64,000 nucleotides of DNA. Source: Octopus vulgaris. Its lineage: Eukaryota. This document shows, one piece after another, positions 16,590 to 48,531 of this stretch (its first letter is position 1; each line of letters opens with the position of its first letter). The translations under genes and the position numbers were made by a program. The notes beneath the pieces are model-generated. The model saw only the letters and a program-made list of their open reading frames with translations. It was not told the origin of the DNA and did not search any database. Where the stretch lies: positions 61,442,001 through 61,506,000 of the forward strand of contig OX597817.1 in assembly GCA_951406725.2 (NCBI GenBank), read 5' to 3'.

Positions 16590-16626
<37 letters not shown>

Positions 16627-16630
<4 letters not shown>

Positions 16631-17775
16631 GTCCATGAAGTGGGGAGCAGAGCAGATGCTAAAGAATACAGGCCCCTCTCTCTGACCTCACATGTTAGCA
16701 AGACAATGGAACGCATTGTCAGAAAAAGGTTGATCACGTTCCTAGAAGAGAATAACTTTCTCACAAACACGCAACATGGCTTCTGTCCAAGAAGGAGCTG
16801 CTGCAGCACTCTGACTGGGTACTGAAACAACAGCTAAACCAGTCAGCTCTAGACGTAATATATCTCGACTTTGCCAAGGCCTTCGACAAGGTTGATCATG
16901 GCATGATATGTCACAAGCTGCGGAACCTTGGTATTACTTGGAAACTGGGAGAGTGGCTGCATGACTTTCTGAAGGTTAGGAGTGGTAGCCAATGACGCTC
17001 ACTCTGAAGAGACACCAATTCTCAGCGGAGTGCCACTACTATTTGTGGTGGCCCTCTCAGACATGCCCTCTGCAGTACTGTCAGTACACAAATGTATCGC
17101 AGGCAGTTAGGAACCCAGAGGACATCATAAAACTTCAGAAAGACTTGAATGAAATACACAAATGGGCTAAAAAAATAACATGCAGTTCAATGCTATGAAA
17201 TTTTCAGGCACTCCACTATCGGTCCAACACCAGGCTAAAATCAGAATACACCTGACCAAAAGGTAATACGATGCCGGAGTCAGGGTCGGTGCGTGACCTG
17301 GAGGTTCACATGAGCAATGATGTAACATTCCATGTGCATATTACCAAGACAGCAACACTGTGCACAACCAAGAAATGTGAGGCCTTGCTACGCCTACGGA
17401 GGACTTTCGTCCTCAGGCACTTGGACTACTGCTCCCAACTATGGTCCCCAGAGAGTGTGAAACAAACTGTGGAACTTGAAGCAATCCAGTGCCAACACAC
17501 AAAGAAGATTGACTCGATGCAAAAGACGGGTTACTGGGAGAGGCTGAAGGAGCTGAATCTCTATCTATTCCCTGGAGAGAAGACGAGGGAGATATGTAGT
17601 GCTATATATTTGGAAGATCTTGGAGGGTTTAGCTCCCAATTTTGGAATTGACAGCTATACCAATCCTCAACAGCACTGCATCATACCAAAGATCCTGCTT
17701 CCCCCATCTAAAATAAGGACACAGTACTGCAATAGTCTGGGTTTCAAGGACCCGCAATTGTTCAGCATCCTGGTC
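16627..17775 (+). mobile_element. Decayed 5'-truncated CR1-group LINE
   Basis: [53 protein letters not shown]; starts right after (TA)n. Confidence 0.85.
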
Positions 17776-33919: not shown

Positions 33920-35762
33920 TCTTTACCCTGCAGTGTAGGGCCATTCCTCAGAAAAGATGGTTCACTCACAGGAAACTCAATGAGGATAAGTGGAATACTA
34001 AATGAGCAATTCAAAAGTGTTTTCACTCCACCCCCAGGACTCTTGTACGTTAGCAACCCAGCTGACTTTTTCGATACTGCAGATACAAAAACAGAAGCGG
34101 TGATGATTGATACATCAATATAAAAGAAGATGATATAACGAGGGCTATGGATGAGATGAACCCGAATTCAGCTACTGGCCCTGATGGACTTGCCGCAATC
34201 CTTCTAAAATCATGTAAGCGAGTCCTAGTAAGACCACTGCAGTCTCTCTTCCAGAGTTTACTTGCAACTGACAAACTTCCAAGAGAGCTGAAGGAAGGCA
34301 AAATATGACCCATTCATTAAGGAGGTAGCAGAGCAGAGGCCAAAAACTACAGACCTATCTCTCTGACCTCGCACATCAGCTAAGTCATGGAACGAATAGT
34401 CAGTAGAAAACTAATCACCTTCCTTGAGGAAAATAACTTGCTGATTGACACCCAAAAAGAAGCTGCCTAACTCAGCTCTTAAAACATTATGACTGGGTGT
34501 TGAAACAGCTCCTCAACCATTCAAATGTGGATGTGATATATCTCTACTTCGCAAAGGCTTTTAACAAAGTTGATCATAGAATATGTCACAAACTGCGTGA
34601 TCTCGGCATAGTCGGGAAATTGGGAGAATGGCTGCATGACATTCTGAAAGATAGAAATCAAGCAGTAGTAGCCAATGAGACCACCACCAATGACATGCAA
34701 ATAGTGGTGTTCGCAAGGCACTGTTTTGGGACCAGTACTGTTCATAATGGACCTCTCAGATATGCCCTCAGCCATACAGAGAGCTACGAACACAGGTTAT
34801 GCAGATGATACATAACTTGAAGATTCTATTCACCTGAAACGTGATTTACATGAAACATACAAGTGGGCTGAGAAGAACAGCATGCAGCTTAATGCTGGAA
34901 AGTTTCAAGCCTGGTGCTATCAACATGCAAAACTAAATTCAATACAAACCAAATACACTGGATCTGGAGGTATTGCAATCCCAGAGATACAGTCAGTGCG
35001 TGGCCTGCGCATTTATATAAGTAATGATGCATCCTTACATGTGCACGTTGCTAGATTGGCAAGGAAATGTAGGCAGCTGACCGGATGGATTCTTAGAACT
35101 TTTAGAACTAGGGATCAGGAAACCATGATGGTCCTTTGGAGGACATTTTTCCTAAGCCACTTTTACTATTGCTCCCAGCTATGGTCACCAACCAGTGTAA
35201 AATTAATTGCATAACCTGAGGCAATACAACGAAGCTACACGAAGATAGCCACTATGTGGTATATAAGCTACTGGGAAAGACTCAAGAGATTGAGACTCTA
35301 TTCCCTAGAGCGTAGGTGCGAAATATATGCCATAATGAACATCTGGAAGATCCTAGGGGGACTTGTCCCAAACGTTGGCATTGAGAGTTACACTAAGGCT
35401 AGAACATGGCACCACTGCATAGTGCCAACGACCCCAACTTTGCCATCAAGATATAGGACAAGATATGCAACAGCCTGGGCTTTAAAAGACCACAGCTCTT
35501 CAATATCCTCCCGAAGAACCTGAGAGACCTGCACGGGTGGATTTAGGTGTCTTCAAAATGAAACTAGATCTCCTACTGTCAAACGTTCCAGGTGAACCAA
35601 CTTTACAGTAGGAAGGGCAAATGAGGACAGTGGCGTCAAACTCCCTTATACACCAAATTTCAAGTTCGAAAATGAATTAGCGAAGTAAAAGTTATGTAGC
35701 AACACCGAATGGTGGTGCCCCAGCATGGCCACAGCTCATGAGCTGAAACCAGTTCAATTCAA
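33920..35762 (+). mobile_element. 5'-truncated, decayed CR1-group LINE with intact 3' tail
   Basis: Collinear with ~46215-48090; tail GGTGGTGCCCCAGCATGGCCACAGCTCATGAGCTGAAAC + (TTCAA)2 + (TA)n. Confidence 0.9.
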
Positions 35763-35789
35763 TATATATATATATATATATATATATAA

Positions 35790-40204: not shown

Positions 40205-40535
40205 GTGTTACAGTATCTGGTCCTGTATTTTGATGGCGATACTGGGATCTTTGACACTATGCAGTGGCACCCAATTCTGCAGTTTGAGTAACTTTCAATG
40301 TCAAAATTTGGTACAAGGCCTTCCATGATTTTCCAGATGTATATTACTGCATAACCTTGCCGCCTTCGTTCTAGGGAGAATGGTTTTAATTCTTTCAGTC
40401 TTCCCTAGTAGCTGATAGGTTTGATTGAGACGATTTTCTTAGTGTAGCTTCGTTGGATTGCTTCGAGTTCCGCCGTGAATTTTGTATTATGTGGTGACCA
40501 TCATTGAGAGCAGCAGTCCAAGCGACTGAGGACAT
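40205..40535 (-). mobile_element. CR1-group LINE C-terminal fragment
   Basis: YVLSRLDCCSQ...YIWKIMEGLVPNF...YRTRYCN. Confidence 0.8.
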
Positions 40536-43168
40536 ATGAAGAAGAAATTTGGAGGGCACTCAAGAACCTGATATGTTTACCTTCAAGGCAAATGTTGGCA
40601 TGGGGAAGACGGCAAAAACTGCCGGTTTGCTTACCCGAGATCCATCCAAAACTACAAAGGGTCTTAAGAAGAAAAATTTCCCTGAGGAAAGACACCAATC
40701 GTCTCCAAAGAAAAAATATGCAAAAGCAGTGCACTCTTCAGAGGTTATGCACAAAGCAGCAGCTGAGCAAGAGTCTTTGTTTTGTGCAAGGCGCAAAAGA
40801 TTCTGCAGCAGCTGACCTAGTTACATCAAGCGCAAACAAGGAACTTTGCCCACCACTGCGCAAGACCACCATAATCAACAGACATGCGATGGCCTCCCCT
40901 AACGCCTGCACAGTCATCACGCCAAAACTTTTACTAAATATTGAGGGCCTATCGCATCGAAATAAAAACAAAATGTCTTTCTTGACAGATCTTACTGCAT
41001 GCAATCAAGCCCTATGCATAGCACTCGTGGAAACTTACCTCAGCCCTGATATAGAGGATGTAAAAGTACGAGTACCAAAATATGCCATACTGCGAACAGA
41101 CGGAAGGGAAAGGAGCCATGGTGGAGTTGCTGTATACATCCGTGATGACCTCACACCCCAGGACTTACTGCCCTACTCAAATTCGGTATATGACACTCTA
41201 ATTGTATACATACGACAACATAGTATAGTCATATGCAATACATATTGCCCACCAGATGCCCCAAACCACATAGGCAAGTTTGAAGATTGCCTCACAAGAA
41301 TTAAAGGAAATCCTCATGAATCTGGAACACCACGTGACCATATTTCTTATGGGTGATTTCAACTTCCCCAACGTCAAATGGCCCGAAGGTCTCATACTCT
41401 CAGGATTGACTCATTGCAAGCAAGCACAGGTGGAGTCCCTGCTCAACCTCACCAGTGCCCTATTCATGGAACAAGCTGTACTCAGACCGACTAGGGCGAA
41501 TAACATTCTGGATCTCTGCTTCACGAACAATATGGACATCATTCATGATGTGAAAGTGACACCGACATTAGTTTCGGATCACAACATAATAGAGCTGTCT
41601 ATGTTTGGGCCGAAAGTAACCAGAGACATACAGCCTAAAGGAAGCACCTGAAATCTCTCCAATCTGAACTTCCACAAACAGACTGGAAATCGATCCAAAA
41701 AGAGATCCTCAGAGAGGACTGGTCGAAATGTCTCTCCACACCAGACATTGACATGAAACTAGAATTTTTCATGTCTTCTGTGAATGCCATATGCCAGAAC
41801 TATGTCCCAAAGCACAAGATCAAAACGAATATGAACAAGATTCCAAGGGAAAGGAAGATCCTCATGAGACGACGGACGAAGGCTGATAATCGACTCAACC
41901 AACATCCCAAAAGTAGCGGAAGGTCTCGCCTAAAAACAACACTGATAGAGATCGAAAAAAGGCTGCAACAATCTTATGTGAGGGAGAAAGCAGACAAAGA
42001 AGCCTGGGTTATAAAAAACATTAAGTTAAACCCAAAAGCCTTCTTTCATTATGCCAAAGAAACAGCCTCACTACGCTGCAAGATAGGAACCCTCTTCCAA
42101 AAGGATGGCCCACTCACAGACAGTCCAACTATGATCAGTGAGATACTGAATGACCAGTTCAAAAGTGTCTTTACCACCCCGTTGGAACATAGACAAGTGA
42201 ACGAACCAGTGAACTTCTTTGCCGTCTCATCTATAACCAACGAGGCAGTTACAATGGAATACGTCGACATTAGCGAAGAAGATATACTACTAGCCATAGA
42301 TGAAGTGGACACAAACTCAACTGCTGGTCCTGATGGTTTCCCAGCAATCCTCCTCAAATCGAGTAAGCGTGCCTTGGCCAAACCCCTCCAGATTCTCTTC
42401 CAAAGCTTTCTTGCAAATGGCAGACTGCCGAGCAAGCTGAAGGAGGGAATAATATGCCCAATGCATAAAGTAGGAAGGAGAACAGATGCCAAAAACTATA
42501 GGCCTATCTCCCTCACTTCACACATCAGCAAAGTCATGGAACGGATAGTCAGAGGGAAACTAATCGCATTCCTTGAAGAAAATAACTTGCTGAGTGATAC
42601 TCAGCATGGCTTCCGAATAGGTAGAAGCTGCCTGACTCAGCTCTTACAACATTATAACTGGGTGTTGAAGCAGTTATTCAACAACTCAAATGTGGCCGTA
42701 ACATACCTTGATTTTGCAAAAGCTTTTGACAAAGTGGATCATAGTATGATATGCCACAAACTGCGTGATCTTGGCATAGCTGGAAAACTTGGGGAGTGGT
42801 TACATGACTTTCTGAAAGATATAAGTCAGGCAGTAGGGGCCAATGGAGCCCCCTTAATGAAAACACAAATAGTGAGTGGTGTTCCACAAGGCACTGTCTT
42901 GGGACCACTGCTATTCATAGTGGCTTTCTCAGATATGTCCTCAACTGCCCGGATAGCCACCCTTGCTAGCTACGCACACGATACGAAAGTCTCGCAGAAA
43001 ATACAGAACCTCAGCGATGTTGCAAACCTGCAGCAGGAGTTTGACTCAATTTACACATGGGCTGAGGATAATAATATTCAGTTTAATGCTGAAAAATTCC
43101 ACGCCCTTCGCTACGAGCATTCAAAACTGAATATAAAACTTACAGGGTACACTGGTCCAAATGGAATA
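40536..43168 (+). mobile_element. CR1-group LINE (zinc-finger remnant, APE, RT), lacking its 3' end
   Basis: KCWHGEDGKNCRFAY; APE LLLNIEGL, LVETYL, GGVAVY, GDFN, LDLCFT, SDH; [37 protein letters not shown] (mutated YADD). Confidence 0.9.
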
Positions 43169-43604: not shown

Positions 43605-43838
43605 AAATTAGAGATAAAACCACTATTAGGCAAATCAAACAATGAAAAACATAAGCCAATACATATAATTAATTAATTAATATTATTTTAAATATATATC
43701 AAAAGTATTAAAAGTTTAATAAAAGATAATGGGTAAAACACTACGATCGTTTCATGCCTGTACAATTCGTAATAATTCGAGTTATGGTTACAGTCAATCT
43801 TCAGGTTAATTGAAATATTCATCTTAGCGAGGTTAGTA
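43600..43838 (-). mobile_element. Penelope-type fragment with long-stem-II HHR (43739-43807)
   Basis: Minus: CTGAAGA-TTGACTGTA...TACAGGCAT-GAAACGATCGTA-GTG; resembles 35790-36010. Confidence 0.6.
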
Positions 43839-43839
43839 T

Positions 43840-43951
<112 letters not shown>

Positions 43952-44006
43952 TATACATAGGTATATATATATATATATATATATAGATATATAGACATAT
44001 ATATAC

Positions 44007-44131
<125 letters not shown>

Positions 44132-44166
44132 GATATATAGACATATATATACATAGATATATATAT

Positions 44167-44281
44167 GGCCATATCACGTCGAAAGCACCGGTTCTCGTCC
44201 GATCACCGAAGTTAAGCAACATCGAGCCTAGTTAGTACTTAGATGGGTGACCGCTTGGGAAACCTAGGTGCTGTAAGCATT
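44167..44281 (+). rRNA. 5S rRNA-derived sequence (5' few nt missing; retroposed copy or element head)
   Basis: GGCCATATCACGTCGAAAGCACCGGTTCTCGTCCGATCACCGAAGTTAAGC...AGTACTTAGATGGGTGACCGCTTGGGAAACCTAGGTGCTGTAAGCAT; box A and box C present; CCTAG/CTAGG helix intact. Confidence 0.9.
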
Positions 44282-47200
44282 ACCTTTTAACAATATAATT
44301 ACAGCTGCGCTGAAGAGCGGTAGTTATAAAAGGATAATAGCTCAGATAGAGCGGAAGAAGCAGGAGTTTGTACGCTCCTATGCACTTATACGATCTCACA
44401 TTGGCACGCTTGATGCCATCTTTGAGAACGAACAAAGTAAAGATGGCATGGATGGAGACACGGGTGCTGATGAAAGAAGTCACCCCCACCTAATAGACAC
44501 CCGGGAAGTAAACCCAAGTGCAAGTGCTCCTACCAGCACCAAAAGCCATGGAGATGAAGAACCCAAAGAAGAAATAAAAGGAGGAAAAACTAAAAGAAAA
44601 ACTCAAACAAAACCAAAAAATGAAACAGCCAAGAATAGAAGTAAAACTGACTATCCATATACCAAAAAGGATGGAAACAAACAGCACACACGGGTGTGTA
44701 GGTTCTACCTGAGAGGTACCTGCTGGCATGGAGAGGCTGCCGTTTTGCACATCGGGGACCCTGCCGCAGAGACACGAAACAGATCAGAAACAAACTAACA
44801 AAAGGAAAAGGGATGGACCACGCACCACCTGCCCCAAAACGGAGGTACGCAGATGTGGTGCGTGCCACAAACCGCCAACATGATGTTGTTGAAAGGGCAG
44901 CTGCTGAACAAGAATCTTTTTTGTGCATGGCACAAAAGATTGTACAGCAGCTAACCTGGCTTCATCAAACCCAAGCTCGCAGATGGGACTACCCACAATA
45001 TACAAGACCACCACAGCAAATAGACCCAAGGTGGACACCGCCGGCAACAGCATACACCTCACCTCGATGCTCCTACTGAACATCAGAGGACTGCAAACAC
45101 TCAGTAACAGGACAAAAATCCCGTTCTTGAGAGACTTTGTTGCATGCAATCAAGCCTTATGCATAGCACTTACGGAAACGCACCTGAAACCGGACATAGC
45201 AGATGCGGAATTACACATACCACAGTATGTTGTACTACGGACCGACAGAAAAGAAAGGAGTCATGGAGGAGTTGCTATGTACATCCGTGAGGACCTCACA
45301 CCCCAGGTCCTTTTGTCATACTCAAACTCGGTGTGTGACACACTAATTGTACATATAAGGCAACTTGATGTAGTTGTGTGTGCTACATATCGCCCTCCAG
45401 ATGCCCCAAGCCATGTAGGCAAGTTTGAAGACTGCCTTATAAAAATAGAAGAAGTTCTAATCACATTAGAACAACACATAAGTGTACTTCTTATGGGAGA
45501 CTTCAATCTACCCAATGTCAGATGGCCCGAGGGCCTTTCTCTCCCAGGAATGACAAGATGTGAACGAGGACAGGCGAGGTCCCTCCTGAACCTCATCAAC
45601 ACCCTGTACATGGAGCAAGTAATACTCCAACCAACCAGGGCAGGTAACACACTGGATCTCTGCTTCACAAATAATATGGATCTCATCCATAATGTGAAAG
45701 TGACACCGACACTACTCTCGGATCACAACATGGTAGAGCTGACCATGTACGGGCCAAAGGAAAGCATGGACATGCAGCCTACAAGAAACCCTCAGAATCT
45801 TTCCAGCTTGAACTTCCATAAGGCAAACTGGAAACAAATTGAGAAAGAGATCCTCAAACAAAACTGGCCTGAATGTCTCTCCTCGCCAGACATCGACGTG
45901 AAACTTCAACAATTCATGTCTGTAATGCAAGCCATATGCTACAAATGTGTCCCAGAGAGAAAGGCCACATGTACACAAGAACAAAATCCCCAGAGAGAGG
46001 AAAATTTTAATGAGACGGCGTACAAAAATTTCAAATCGCCTAAACAAACAAATTGAAAGCAGTGAAAAGTCCCGCCTGAAAATAAAACTGTTGGAAATTG
46101 AAAAATGTCTGCAACTCTCCCATGAAAAGGAAAGAGCAGACAAAGAAGCCTGGGCTATAGACAACATAAAATCTAACCCCAGAGCTTTCTACAGGTATGC
46201 CAAAGAAACAGCTACGGTGCACTGTAGGATAGGGCCACTCCTTGAAAAGGATGGCACACTCTGAGGAAACCAATGAGGGTAAGTGAAATACTGAATGAGC
46301 AATTCAAGAGTGTTTTCACTCCACCCCTTGGGCATTTCCAAATCACCAATCCAACTGACTTCTTTACCACTGCAGATATAAAATCAGAGGCGGCGACGAT
46401 AGATTACATCGATATAAAGGAAGACGATGTAATAAAGGCTATAGATGAAATGAAAACAGACTCAGCTACTGGCCCCGATGGATTCCCGGCAATCCTCCTA
46501 AAAGTATGTAAGAGAGTCCTAGCAAGACCACTGCAGTTCCTCTTTCAGAGCTTCCTTGCAGCTGGCAAACTTCCAAGAAAACTGAAGGAAGGTAAAATAT
46601 GCCCTATTCATAAAGGAGGTAGCAGAGCGGAGGCCAAGAACTACAGACCTATCTCTCTGACCTCACACATCAGCAAGGTCATGGAACGAATAGTCAGAAG
46701 GAAACTGATCACCTTCCTTGAAGAAAATGACTTGCTGCCTGACACCCAACATGGTTTCCGACCAGGAAGAAGCTGCTTAACTCAGCTCCTACAACACTAT
46801 GACTGGGTGCTGAAACGACTGCTCAACCACTCAAATGTGGAAGTGATATATCTTGACTTTGCAAAGGCCTTTGATAAAGTCGATCATGGAATGATATGTC
46901 ACAAACTGCGTGATCTTAGCATAGTTGGAAAACTGGGAGAATGGCTTCATGACTTTCTGAAAGATAGAAGTCAGGTGGTAGTAGCCACTTCCATTAACAC
47001 GCAAATAGTGAGCGGTGTTCCGCAGGGCACTGTTTTGGGACCACTACTGTTCATAATGGCCCTCTCAGACATGCCCTCAGCCACGCAGAGAGCCACGATC
47101 ACAAGTTATGCAGATGATACAAAAGTTTCACAGGCAATACAAAACCCTGAGGACACTAAACGCCTGCAATGGGAGCTGGACAAAATATACAAGTGGGCTG

Positions 47201-48106
47201 AAAAGAATAGCATGCAGTTCAATGCTGAAAAGTTTCAAGCTTTATACTATCAGCATGCAAAACTAAATGCAATACCCAATGAATACACTGGACCCGGAGG
47301 AATTGCAATCCCAGAGGCACAATCAGTGCGTGACCTGGGTATTTACATGAGTGATGACGCAACCTTTCGTGTACATGTTGCTAAATTGGCAATGAAATGT
47401 AGACGACTGGCCGGATGGATTCTCAGAACCTTTAGAACAAGAGAACAAGAAACCATGATGGTCCTCTGGAGGACCTTGTCCTAAGCCACTTTGTCTATTG
47501 CTCTCAGCTATGGTCACCATCCAGTGTCCAGTTGATCACAGAACTTGAGGTGATCCACCGTAGCTACACGAAGAAGATAGCCTCTGTACAGAATATAAGC
47601 TACTGGGAAAGACTCAAGAGATTACAACTCTATTCCTTGGAGCGTAGGCGAGAAAGATATGCCATAATATACATCTGGAAGATCCTGGAGGGACTTGTCC
47701 CAAACTTTGGCATCGAGAGTTACACAAATGCCAGAACTGGGCGCCACTGCGTGGTGCCTAGGACTCCAAATTTGCCATCAAGATGTAGGACAAGATACTG
47801 TGATAGCCTGGGCTTCCGAGGCCCACAGCTCTTCAATATCCTCCCGAAGAACCTAAGAGACCTGCATGGGGTGGATGCAGATGTCTTTAAAATGAAACTG
47901 GATCTCTTCTTGTCAGGTATCCCAGATGAACCAACTTCACGGCAGGAGGTGCAGATGAGGGCAGCTGCATCGAACTCTCTCATGCACCAAATGGCAGTTG
48001 CTAAAAAGCATTCGTGAAGTAAAACCATGTAGCAACACCAAATGGCAGTGCCCCAGCATGGCCACAGCTCGTGAGCTGAAACTAGAATCAATCAATCAAT
48101 CAATCA
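44282..48106 (+). mobile_element. Near-full-length CR1-group LINE (CCCH zinc finger, APE, RT) with a few disabling lesions
   Basis: CRFYLRGTCWHG/GCRFAH; APE in 44923-46056; RT in 46273-47484 with YADD; C-terminus 47532-48017; frameshifts ~45975 and ~47480, stop at 46262; (AATC)n tail. Confidence 0.93.
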
Positions 48107-48187
48107 TATATAGACATATATATATGTATATATATACATAGATATATAGACATATATATGTATATATATCTATCTATCTATATATAT

Positions 48188-48529
48188 ATTGATTGATTGG
48201 TTGATTGATTGATTCTAGTTTCAGCTCATGAGCTGTGGCCATGCTGAGCACCGCCATTTGGTGTTGCTACTTGGTTTTACTTCACGAAGCTTTTTAGCAA
48301 CTGCCATTTGGTGCATGAGAGAGTTCGATGCAGCTGCCCTCATCTGCACCTCCTGCCGTGAAGTTGGTTCATCTGGGACACCTGACAGGAAGAGATCCAG
48401 TTCCATTTTAAAGACATCTGCATCCACTCCATGCAGGTCTCTCAGGTTCTTCGGGAGGATATTGAAGAGCTGTGGGCCTCGGAAGCCCAGGCTATCACAG
48501 TATCTTGTCCTACATCTTGACGGCAAATT

Positions 48530-48531
<2 letters not shown>
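48188..48531 (-). mobile_element. 3' fragment of the same LINE family, tail-to-tail with the previous copy
   Basis: Near-identical reverse complement of ~47768-48105. Confidence 0.9.

What the first reader, a model, noticed from the sequence alone, without database searches (positions are those of the whole stretch)
44164..48106. 5S rRNA copy fused directly to a near-full-length CR1-group LINE
Seen: (TA)n, then 5S (44167-44281) with box A/C, then LINE sequence, an (AATC)n tail and (TA)n again, so the unit looks like one insertion. The frame of ORF 44448 is open upstream to the 5S end (44277: ALPFNNIITAALKSGSYKRIIAQIERKKQEFVRSY...) with no ATG, as if ORF1 were cut at the junction. TTTT occurs at 44285-44288. 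Established: template-switch chimeras of small RNAs (U6, 5S) with L1 exist in mammals, and SINE3 uses a 5S head as a Pol III promoter. Inference: either a one-off 5S-LINE chimera made by a non-L1 RT, or a LINE subfamily that acquired a 5S promoter.
Basis: partly seen in the sequence, partly recalled or inferred. Interest (0 to 1): 0.75.

Follow-up and report, generated by a model that had tools for sequence, protein, structure and literature searches.

The report
One-off 5S rRNA–LINE fusion
A copy of 5S ribosomal RNA is joined to a broken, front-clipped jumping gene (LINE) at this one place in the genome, likely because the LINE's copying enzyme hopped onto a newly made 5S RNA; it is not a new 5S-driven LINE family but the longest of about ninety similar fusions seen here.

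Summary
The 5S copy (Rfam, 99.9 bits) carries its gene's 3' trailer ATTACCTTTT and abuts a LINE at ORF1 codon 26. The junction is unique in 2.8 Gb (1 match at up to 3 mismatches). Seven other LINE copies have ORF1's ATG and their own 5' UTR, without 5S. The window copy holds about 70% of the LINE, with both ORFs broken and a T6 run downstream, so a 5S-promoter LINE is rejected. It belongs to a genome-wide class: 94 of 98 dispersed 5S copies examined are fused on the same strand to SINE heads, LINE tails or other repeats; all 30 tail junctions differ; U6 and pre-tRNAs do the same. Likely mechanism: template jump onto a nascent U-ended Pol III transcript; RNA ligation is not excluded. No read was seen spanning the junction (inconclusive). 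Known kind (U6/L1, U6/L2, 5S/L1 chimeras); this scan already noted the same class elsewhere in this genome. New here: a 3.8-kb coding partner.

The parts
43837..44166 (.). TA-rich satellite, 5' flank (insertion target)
   Evidence: TRF; ends CATAG-ATATATATAT, the unit resumes after the LINE tail
44167..44278 (+). 5S rRNA copy, nt 7-118, internal promoter region intact, first 3-6 nt and all upstream gene flank missing
   Evidence: Rfam; 1 difference in 112 nt from cluster gene L060
44279..44288 (+). 3' end and trailer of the 5S gene (ATTACCTTTT), ending in the first four T of its Pol III terminator; T44288 fits both partners
   Evidence: same trailer in array genes L011-L030 and cluster gene L230
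44288..45079 (+). LINE ORF1 from codon 26, no start codon of its own, frame broken near 44733; weak CCCH zinc-finger match
   Evidence: Pfam zf-CCCH E 0.0025, below cut-off
44908..48017 (+). LINE ORF2 (apurinic endonuclease + reverse transcriptase), split over four reading frames
   Evidence: relative P0001 89% identical, 1033 aa
48018..48085 (+). LINE 3' end with the motif shared with this genome's SINE tails; stem-loop predicted at about 48044-48063 (centroid only, z -1.05)
48086..48105 (+). (AATC)5 tail
   Evidence: same tail on 4 of 4 complete copies
48106..48189 (.). TA-rich satellite, 3' flank; begins ATATAT, a possible 6-nt target duplication that cannot be told from the repeat

Best explanation
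This is a single, dead chimeric retrocopy: a 5S rRNA copy with its gene's 3' trailer joined to a 5'-truncated LINE, likely made in one insertion when the LINE's reverse transcriptase left its own RNA after 3.8 kb and jumped onto the U-ended 3' end of a newly made 5S transcript. Steps: (1) the LINE enzyme nicks a (TA)n tract and primes on its own 3' tail (target preference shown by flanks; chemistry from established LINE biology); (2) it copies back to ORF1 codon 26 (shown by the junction); (3) it jumps, with at most one base of overlap, to a 5S precursor ending in UUUU (inferred); (4) it copies 5S to nt 4-7 and the end is joined to the TA tract (boundary shown). The copy never spread and has since lost both reading frames (shown).
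For: Junction unique: 1 match genome-wide at 1 mismatch in 30 nt and at 3 in 35 nt. All 7 best other LINE hits start at exactly 44288 and carry ORF1's ATG 75 nt upstream, no 5S; 5 of 7 share one 5' end 1.2-1.5 kb further up. The family targets TA: 4 of those 5 ends sit directly on (TA)n, and 4 of 4 complete 3' ends read (AATC)n-ATA. Ages agree: 18 private substitutions in 3799 nt of LINE, 1 in 112 nt of 5S. Class evidence: of 142 exact matches to a 5S 27-mer, the 100 listed were all read; 2 are cluster genes; 85 of 100 have a same-strand repeat motif within 45 nt, 0 an opposite-strand one, against 18 of 700 and 9 of 1278 control positions; BLAST adds 9, giving 94 of 98 dispersed copies. 48 join a tRNA-SINE at its head, 30 a bare tail with 30 different junctions. 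Co-insertion is shown for two siblings: a 12-nt duplication encloses 5S + SINE in L040 and the host repeat resumes without shift around 5S + tail in L036. The same LINE tail carries U6 (L169) and tRNAs with trailers, one with its intron (L176, L197): 3 of 30 by Rfam. Trailers, an intron and joins at SINE heads point to nascent 3'-OH donors and unprocessed acceptor ends, which RtcB does not join efficiently (PMC6789731, passages). Template jumping is shown in vitro for the R2 enzyme (PMC8857657, abstract).
Against: No read-level proof: no listed contig bridged the junction in the five public runs laid, though none held more than 0.54 of the stretch's words, so none clearly carries this copy. 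No informative target duplication at this locus. Here the LINE end is internal, so a broken RNA with a 5'-OH could have been ligated. One lone 5S copy followed by (TA)n exists (L033), and 4 of 98 dispersed copies have no tool-assigned partner. RNA end chemistry is inferred, not measured. 42 of 142 exact 5S matches and all more diverged copies were not read.
Confidence: 0.7

Rival explanations
1. One-off chimera, but joined as RNA: a ligase (RtcB type) joined a 5S RNA to a cleaved LINE RNA, which was then retroposed whole.
For: Shown for human U6/L1 (PMC6789731, passages). The junction is flush, ends in four T and lies inside the LINE, as in U6/L1.
Against: RtcB needs a 2',3'-cyclic phosphate and a 5'-OH; 5S precursors and pre-tRNAs are expected to end in 3'-OH (established knowledge), and 48 of 85 motif-assigned siblings join at a SINE head, where a triphosphate is expected (inference).
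Confidence: 0.15
2. Two independent insertions: a lone 5S retrocopy and a truncated LINE that landed flush against each other in the same TA tract.
For: The family targets TA tracts, a second copy of it sits 88 nt downstream in the same tract, and a lone 5S followed by (TA)n exists (L033).
Against: No TA residue at the junction; lone 5S copies are rare here (at most 4 of 98); 0 opposite-strand joins; siblings L036 and L040 are co-inserted.
Confidence: 0.07
3. Assembly artefact joining two repeats.
For: Both parts are repeats inside microsatellite; no public contig laid bridges the junction.
Against: The join falls exactly at the 5S terminator, as in about ninety other loci; the satellite unit stays in register across the element; the LINE has private lesions along its length.
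Confidence: 0.05
4. A LINE subfamily that replaced its 5' UTR with a 5S Pol III promoter and spread.
For: The 5S internal promoter region is intact (1 change) and all of ORF2 is present in span.
Against: One copy; T4 at the junction, T6 at 44917 and five more T4 runs on the sense strand; ORF1 has no start; Pol III RNA is uncapped (established knowledge); only 4 places carry this 5S type with this trailer: a cluster gene, the window and two tail-only fusions with other junctions.
Confidence: 0.03

Closest known systems
U6/L2, U6/Mon-1, U6/RTE and U6/AnolisSINE2 chimeras of platypus and anole (PMC4476161, section 10 read)
   Same: Small Pol III RNA fused in sense to the 5' side of a 'stringent' non-L1 LINE or its SINE; nearly every dispersed copy is a chimera because the RNA lacks the tail the enzyme needs; short or no target duplication.
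   Different: Here the head is 5S with its gene trailer, the host is an invertebrate, and the partner is 3.8 kb; that paper had one unresolved CR1 case (turkey) and does not mention 5S rRNA in its main text.
Human 5S/L1 chimeras (bioRxiv 10.1101/2025.02.02.635956, passages)
   Same: 5S rRNA sequence co-inserted with a 5'-truncated LINE.
   Different: There 5S is often antisense and cut at nt 46 or 90, suggesting twin priming; here it is sense and complete to the terminator (0 antisense among 85).
U6/L1 chimeras formed by RtcB ligation (PMC6789731, passages)
   Same: Whole small RNA ending in a T run, flush on a variably truncated LINE.
   Different: 5S precursors are not known to carry the cyclic phosphate; many siblings join SINE heads.
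SINE3 and SINE birth by head capture (PMC5786205 passages; PittSINE, PMC5729268 passages)
   Same: 5S or tRNA head added to a LINE-derived 3' end, proposed to arise by template switch.
   Different: SINE3 families are short and amplified from a master; this unit is single-copy and the short 5S + tail siblings all have different junctions.

Membership tests
Small-RNA/LINE chimeric retrocopy | Small RNA copy 5' of the LINE, same strand, without the gene's upstream flank | tested here: met
Small-RNA/LINE chimeric retrocopy | LINE is 5'-truncated with an intact 3' tail | tested here: met
Small-RNA/LINE chimeric retrocopy | Junction unique, not amplified | tested here: met
   1 match
Small-RNA/LINE chimeric retrocopy | One target duplication or empty site enclosing both parts | tested here: inconclusive
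   only ATATAT inside a TA satellite here; met in siblings L040 and L036
SINE3 / 5S-headed family | 5S head with internal promoter | tested here: met
   1 change in nt 7-118
SINE3 / 5S-headed family | Many copies sharing one head-body junction | tested here: not met
   1 copy; 30 of 30 and 29 of 29 tail junctions distinct (the two sets overlap)
SINE3 / 5S-headed family | No Pol III terminator between head and tail | tested here: not met
   T4 at 44285, T6 at 44917
CR1-group LINE | ORF2 with apurinic endonuclease and RT, no RNase H | tested here: met
   Pfam; P0001 domains
CR1-group LINE | 3' end with short structured motif and simple-repeat tail, shared with SINEs | tested here: met
   the stem-loop itself is only weakly predicted
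CR1-group LINE | RT groups with CR1 in a phylogeny | not testable with these tools
   no clade-labelled references could be laid in; only distant L1 and R2 solved structures matched; RT motif likeness to CR1 is recalled
RtcB-ligated chimera | Donor with 2',3'-cyclic phosphate, acceptor with 5'-OH, chimeric RNA without RT | not testable with these tools
   requirement from PMC6789731; DNA alone cannot show it

The most novel reading that the evidence does not exclude
The octopus CR1-type reverse transcriptase routinely jumps in vivo, without RNA ligation, onto nascent U-ended Pol III transcripts (pre-5S, U6, intron-containing pre-tRNA), supplies nearly all dispersed 5S copies of the genome, and here put a Pol III promoter on an almost complete LINE coding region: a fossil record of how new SINE heads and LINE 5' ends are tried out.
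Probability: 0.5. Interest if true: 0.55.

Novelty: new member of a known kind. Interest (0 to 1): 0.33.

Why it matters
The locus itself is a dead pseudogene. Its value lies in the class: dozens of independent junctions keeping gene trailers and tRNA introns let one ask whether small-RNA/LINE chimeras outside mammals arise by template jump or by RNA ligation, and they show the raw step by which SINE3-type elements are thought to be born, without any having amplified in the sample read. It also warns that dispersed '5S genes' or '5S SINEs' in this genome are mostly one-off fusions.

Tried and rejected
5S-headed LINE family: rejected by copy number and terminators. A 5S + tail SINE3 master: first suggested by L009 and L010, rejected because every junction differs and because 20 of 30 plain copies of this LINE tail also stop within 6 nt of the same motif, so the shared join point is a truncation hotspot. 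Public runs: 24 listed, best share 0.54; X1, X2, X3, X5, X7 laid as contigs, no listed piece bridges 44288, lists cut and two runs read in part: no verdict on the junction or on expression. General enrichment of TA upstream of 5S fusions is modest (13 of 97 against about 4%). Empty-site search gave clear cases only for L036 and L040 of 33 loci with a repeat upstream. Clade: Atlas search of ORF1 gave no usable hit; a motif search in the supplement of PMC11203168 found similar gastropod RTs without clade labels. Literature: seven searches answered listed no paper on such chimeras in cephalopods by title or abstract start; the O. vulgaris repeat paper PMC13282606 (part 1 of 3 read, term search of the whole main text) has no 'chimer', 'template' or 'snRNA', but its table lists '5S', 'U' and 'U-L1' SINE families, and its supplements and Repbase were not seen, so such units may be annotated there. 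bioRxiv supplements were closed.

Full report
Observation. The window's only Rfam hit is 5S rRNA at 44161-44279 (99.9 bits). The genome's 5S genes lie in a cluster at G000:C4:35.2-35.3 Mb and begin GCTTAC-GGCC, so the window copy lacks its first 3-6 nt and all upstream flank; over nt 7-118 it differs by one base from cluster gene L060. It continues with ATTACCTTTT, the trailer and first terminator bases of the main array genes and, to three T, of cluster gene L230, which also shares its two diagnostic bases. LINE sequence starts at 44288, with one T that fits both sides. Downstream are ORF1 and ORF2 remains (Pfam endonuclease E 5e-12, RT E 3.5e-30), a 3' motif, (AATC)5 and TA satellite. The host is likely an octopus: the closest named protein is from Argonauta hians (59%), and the SINE heads are recalled as octopus types.

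Family or single event. A search with the 256 nt around the junction scored 40 of 1985 candidates; only the window matches both halves, and 7 LINE copies match from exactly 44288. All 7 carry ORF1's start 75 nt upstream, and 5 share a 5' end 1.2-1.5 kb above it. Whole-genome pattern counts give one junction at 1 mismatch in 30 nt and at 3 in 35 nt. The window copy is 1.5-2.6% from four complete copies, with 18 private substitutions, deletions near 44508, 44733, 46985 and 47474 and an insertion near 45969; ORF2 lies in four frames. The sense strand has T4 at the junction, T6 at 44917 and five more T4 runs. A Pol III-driven LINE is therefore not supported.

One insertion. The family inserts in TA tracts (4 of 5 shared 5' ends directly on (TA)n; 4 of 4 complete 3' ends followed by ATA). 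Around the unit the satellite reads CATAG-ATATAT before and ATATAT-AGAC after, so removing 5S and LINE together restores one unit; this is suggestive only, as the duplication lies in a repeat. Public contigs did not bridge the junction, but no run clearly held this copy.

The class. An exact 27-mer from the 5S 3' end has 142 matches; the 100 listed were read. Two are cluster genes. 85 have a same-strand repeat motif within 45 nt: 48 tRNA-SINE heads, 30 bare tails, 3 RTE-like ends, 3 inner SINE parts and the window's LINE; none is on the opposite strand; controls gave 18 of 700 and 9 of 1278. BLAST assigns 9 more, 94 of 98 in all; L127 and L128 are a local duplicate; L033, L035, L108 and L148 stay unassigned. 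Trailers vary and several match trailers of real cluster genes. All 30 tail junctions differ, as do 29 of 29 among the loci most like L010. L040 has a 12-nt duplication round 5S + SINE; in L036 the host repeat resumes without shift. Of 1718 exact matches to the LINE tail the first 30 were read: 20 stop within 6 nt of the motif, and 3 carry an Rfam head, U6 or tRNA with trailer, one with its intron. Of 166 U6 3'-end matches the first 30 were read: by eye 8 are genes, 19 are fused to SINE heads or tails, 2 to a second U6, 1 unassigned. The window is the only one of the 98 with this LINE's coding body; the next longest partner seen is about 0.6 kb (L047).

Mechanism. Shown: boundaries, uniqueness, strand rule, trailers, co-insertion in two siblings. 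From known biology: LINEs prime on their own 3' end at a nick, and stringent LINEs can copy other RNAs only as chimeras (PMC4476161, section 10). Inferred: a jump from LINE RNA to a nascent 5S RNA ending in UUUU. Ligation by RtcB, shown for human U6/L1, needs a cyclic phosphate and a 5'-OH (PMC6789731, passages); precursors with trailers and joins at SINE heads fit it poorly, but this locus has an internal LINE end and cannot exclude it. I put 0.70 on the jump, 0.15 on ligation, 0.07 on two insertions, 0.05 on an artefact, 0.03 on a 5S-headed family.

Comparison and novelty. It works like the U6/L2 and U6/SINE chimeras of platypus and anole and is a member of the small-RNA/LINE chimera class; it fails the SINE3 test. 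It differs from human 5S/L1 chimeras, which are often antisense and truncated (10.1101/2025.02.02.635956, passages). The seven paper searches listed no cephalopod report, with the limits given under Tried and rejected. Earlier unchecked notes of this scan describe 5S + tail, 5S + SINE, U6 + tail and pre-tRNA + SINE fusions elsewhere in this genome; I had reached the same reading before opening them, and they are not counted as support. Verdict: real, ordinary in kind, unusual in the length of its partner; interest 0.33.

Noticed in passing
window 48190-48531 (-): A second, 340-nt 3' fragment of the same LINE family (96% identical) with its own (AATC)n tail lies tail-to-tail in the same TA tract: a separate insertion.
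   Followed up: partly
L169-L198 (first 30 of 1718 LINE-tail matches): 20 of 30 copies stop within 6 nt upstream of the 3' motif, a sharp truncation hotspot that may mark where the enzyme loses its grip on the RNA.
   Followed up: partly
   Followed up: yes
G000:C4:35.2-35.33 Mb; L011-L030, L168, L230: The main 5S array has T39 and C102, while dispersed fusions read here have C39 and (by selection) A102; only 1 of 100 listed C102 matches lies outside the cluster. The fusions may record an older state of the array.
   Followed up: partly
L216 and L220, around 1500-1650: U6 followed directly by a second U6 copy, in L216 apparently preceded by a tRNA-like end: possible serial jumps.
   Followed up: no
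L050, L110, L135, L147, L047, L120: 5S fused to repeats with (GAT)n or (AAT)n tails, RTE-like by recall, so more than one LINE enzyme may make these fusions.
   Followed up: partly
L010 (5S + tail): About 300 nt upstream of the fusion recur about 1.1 kb downstream without it: a long duplication around the insertion.
   Followed up: no
window 33928-35763, 40756-43158, 16623-17664, 40210-40534: Four older relatives of the LINE (66-80% identical); the one at 40756-43158 ends just before the satellite that holds the fusion.
   Followed up: no
L161-L167, about 1.2-1.5 kb upstream of ORF1: The LINE's 5' UTR holds a variable number of roughly 130-190 nt tandem units just before the ATG.
   Followed up: no
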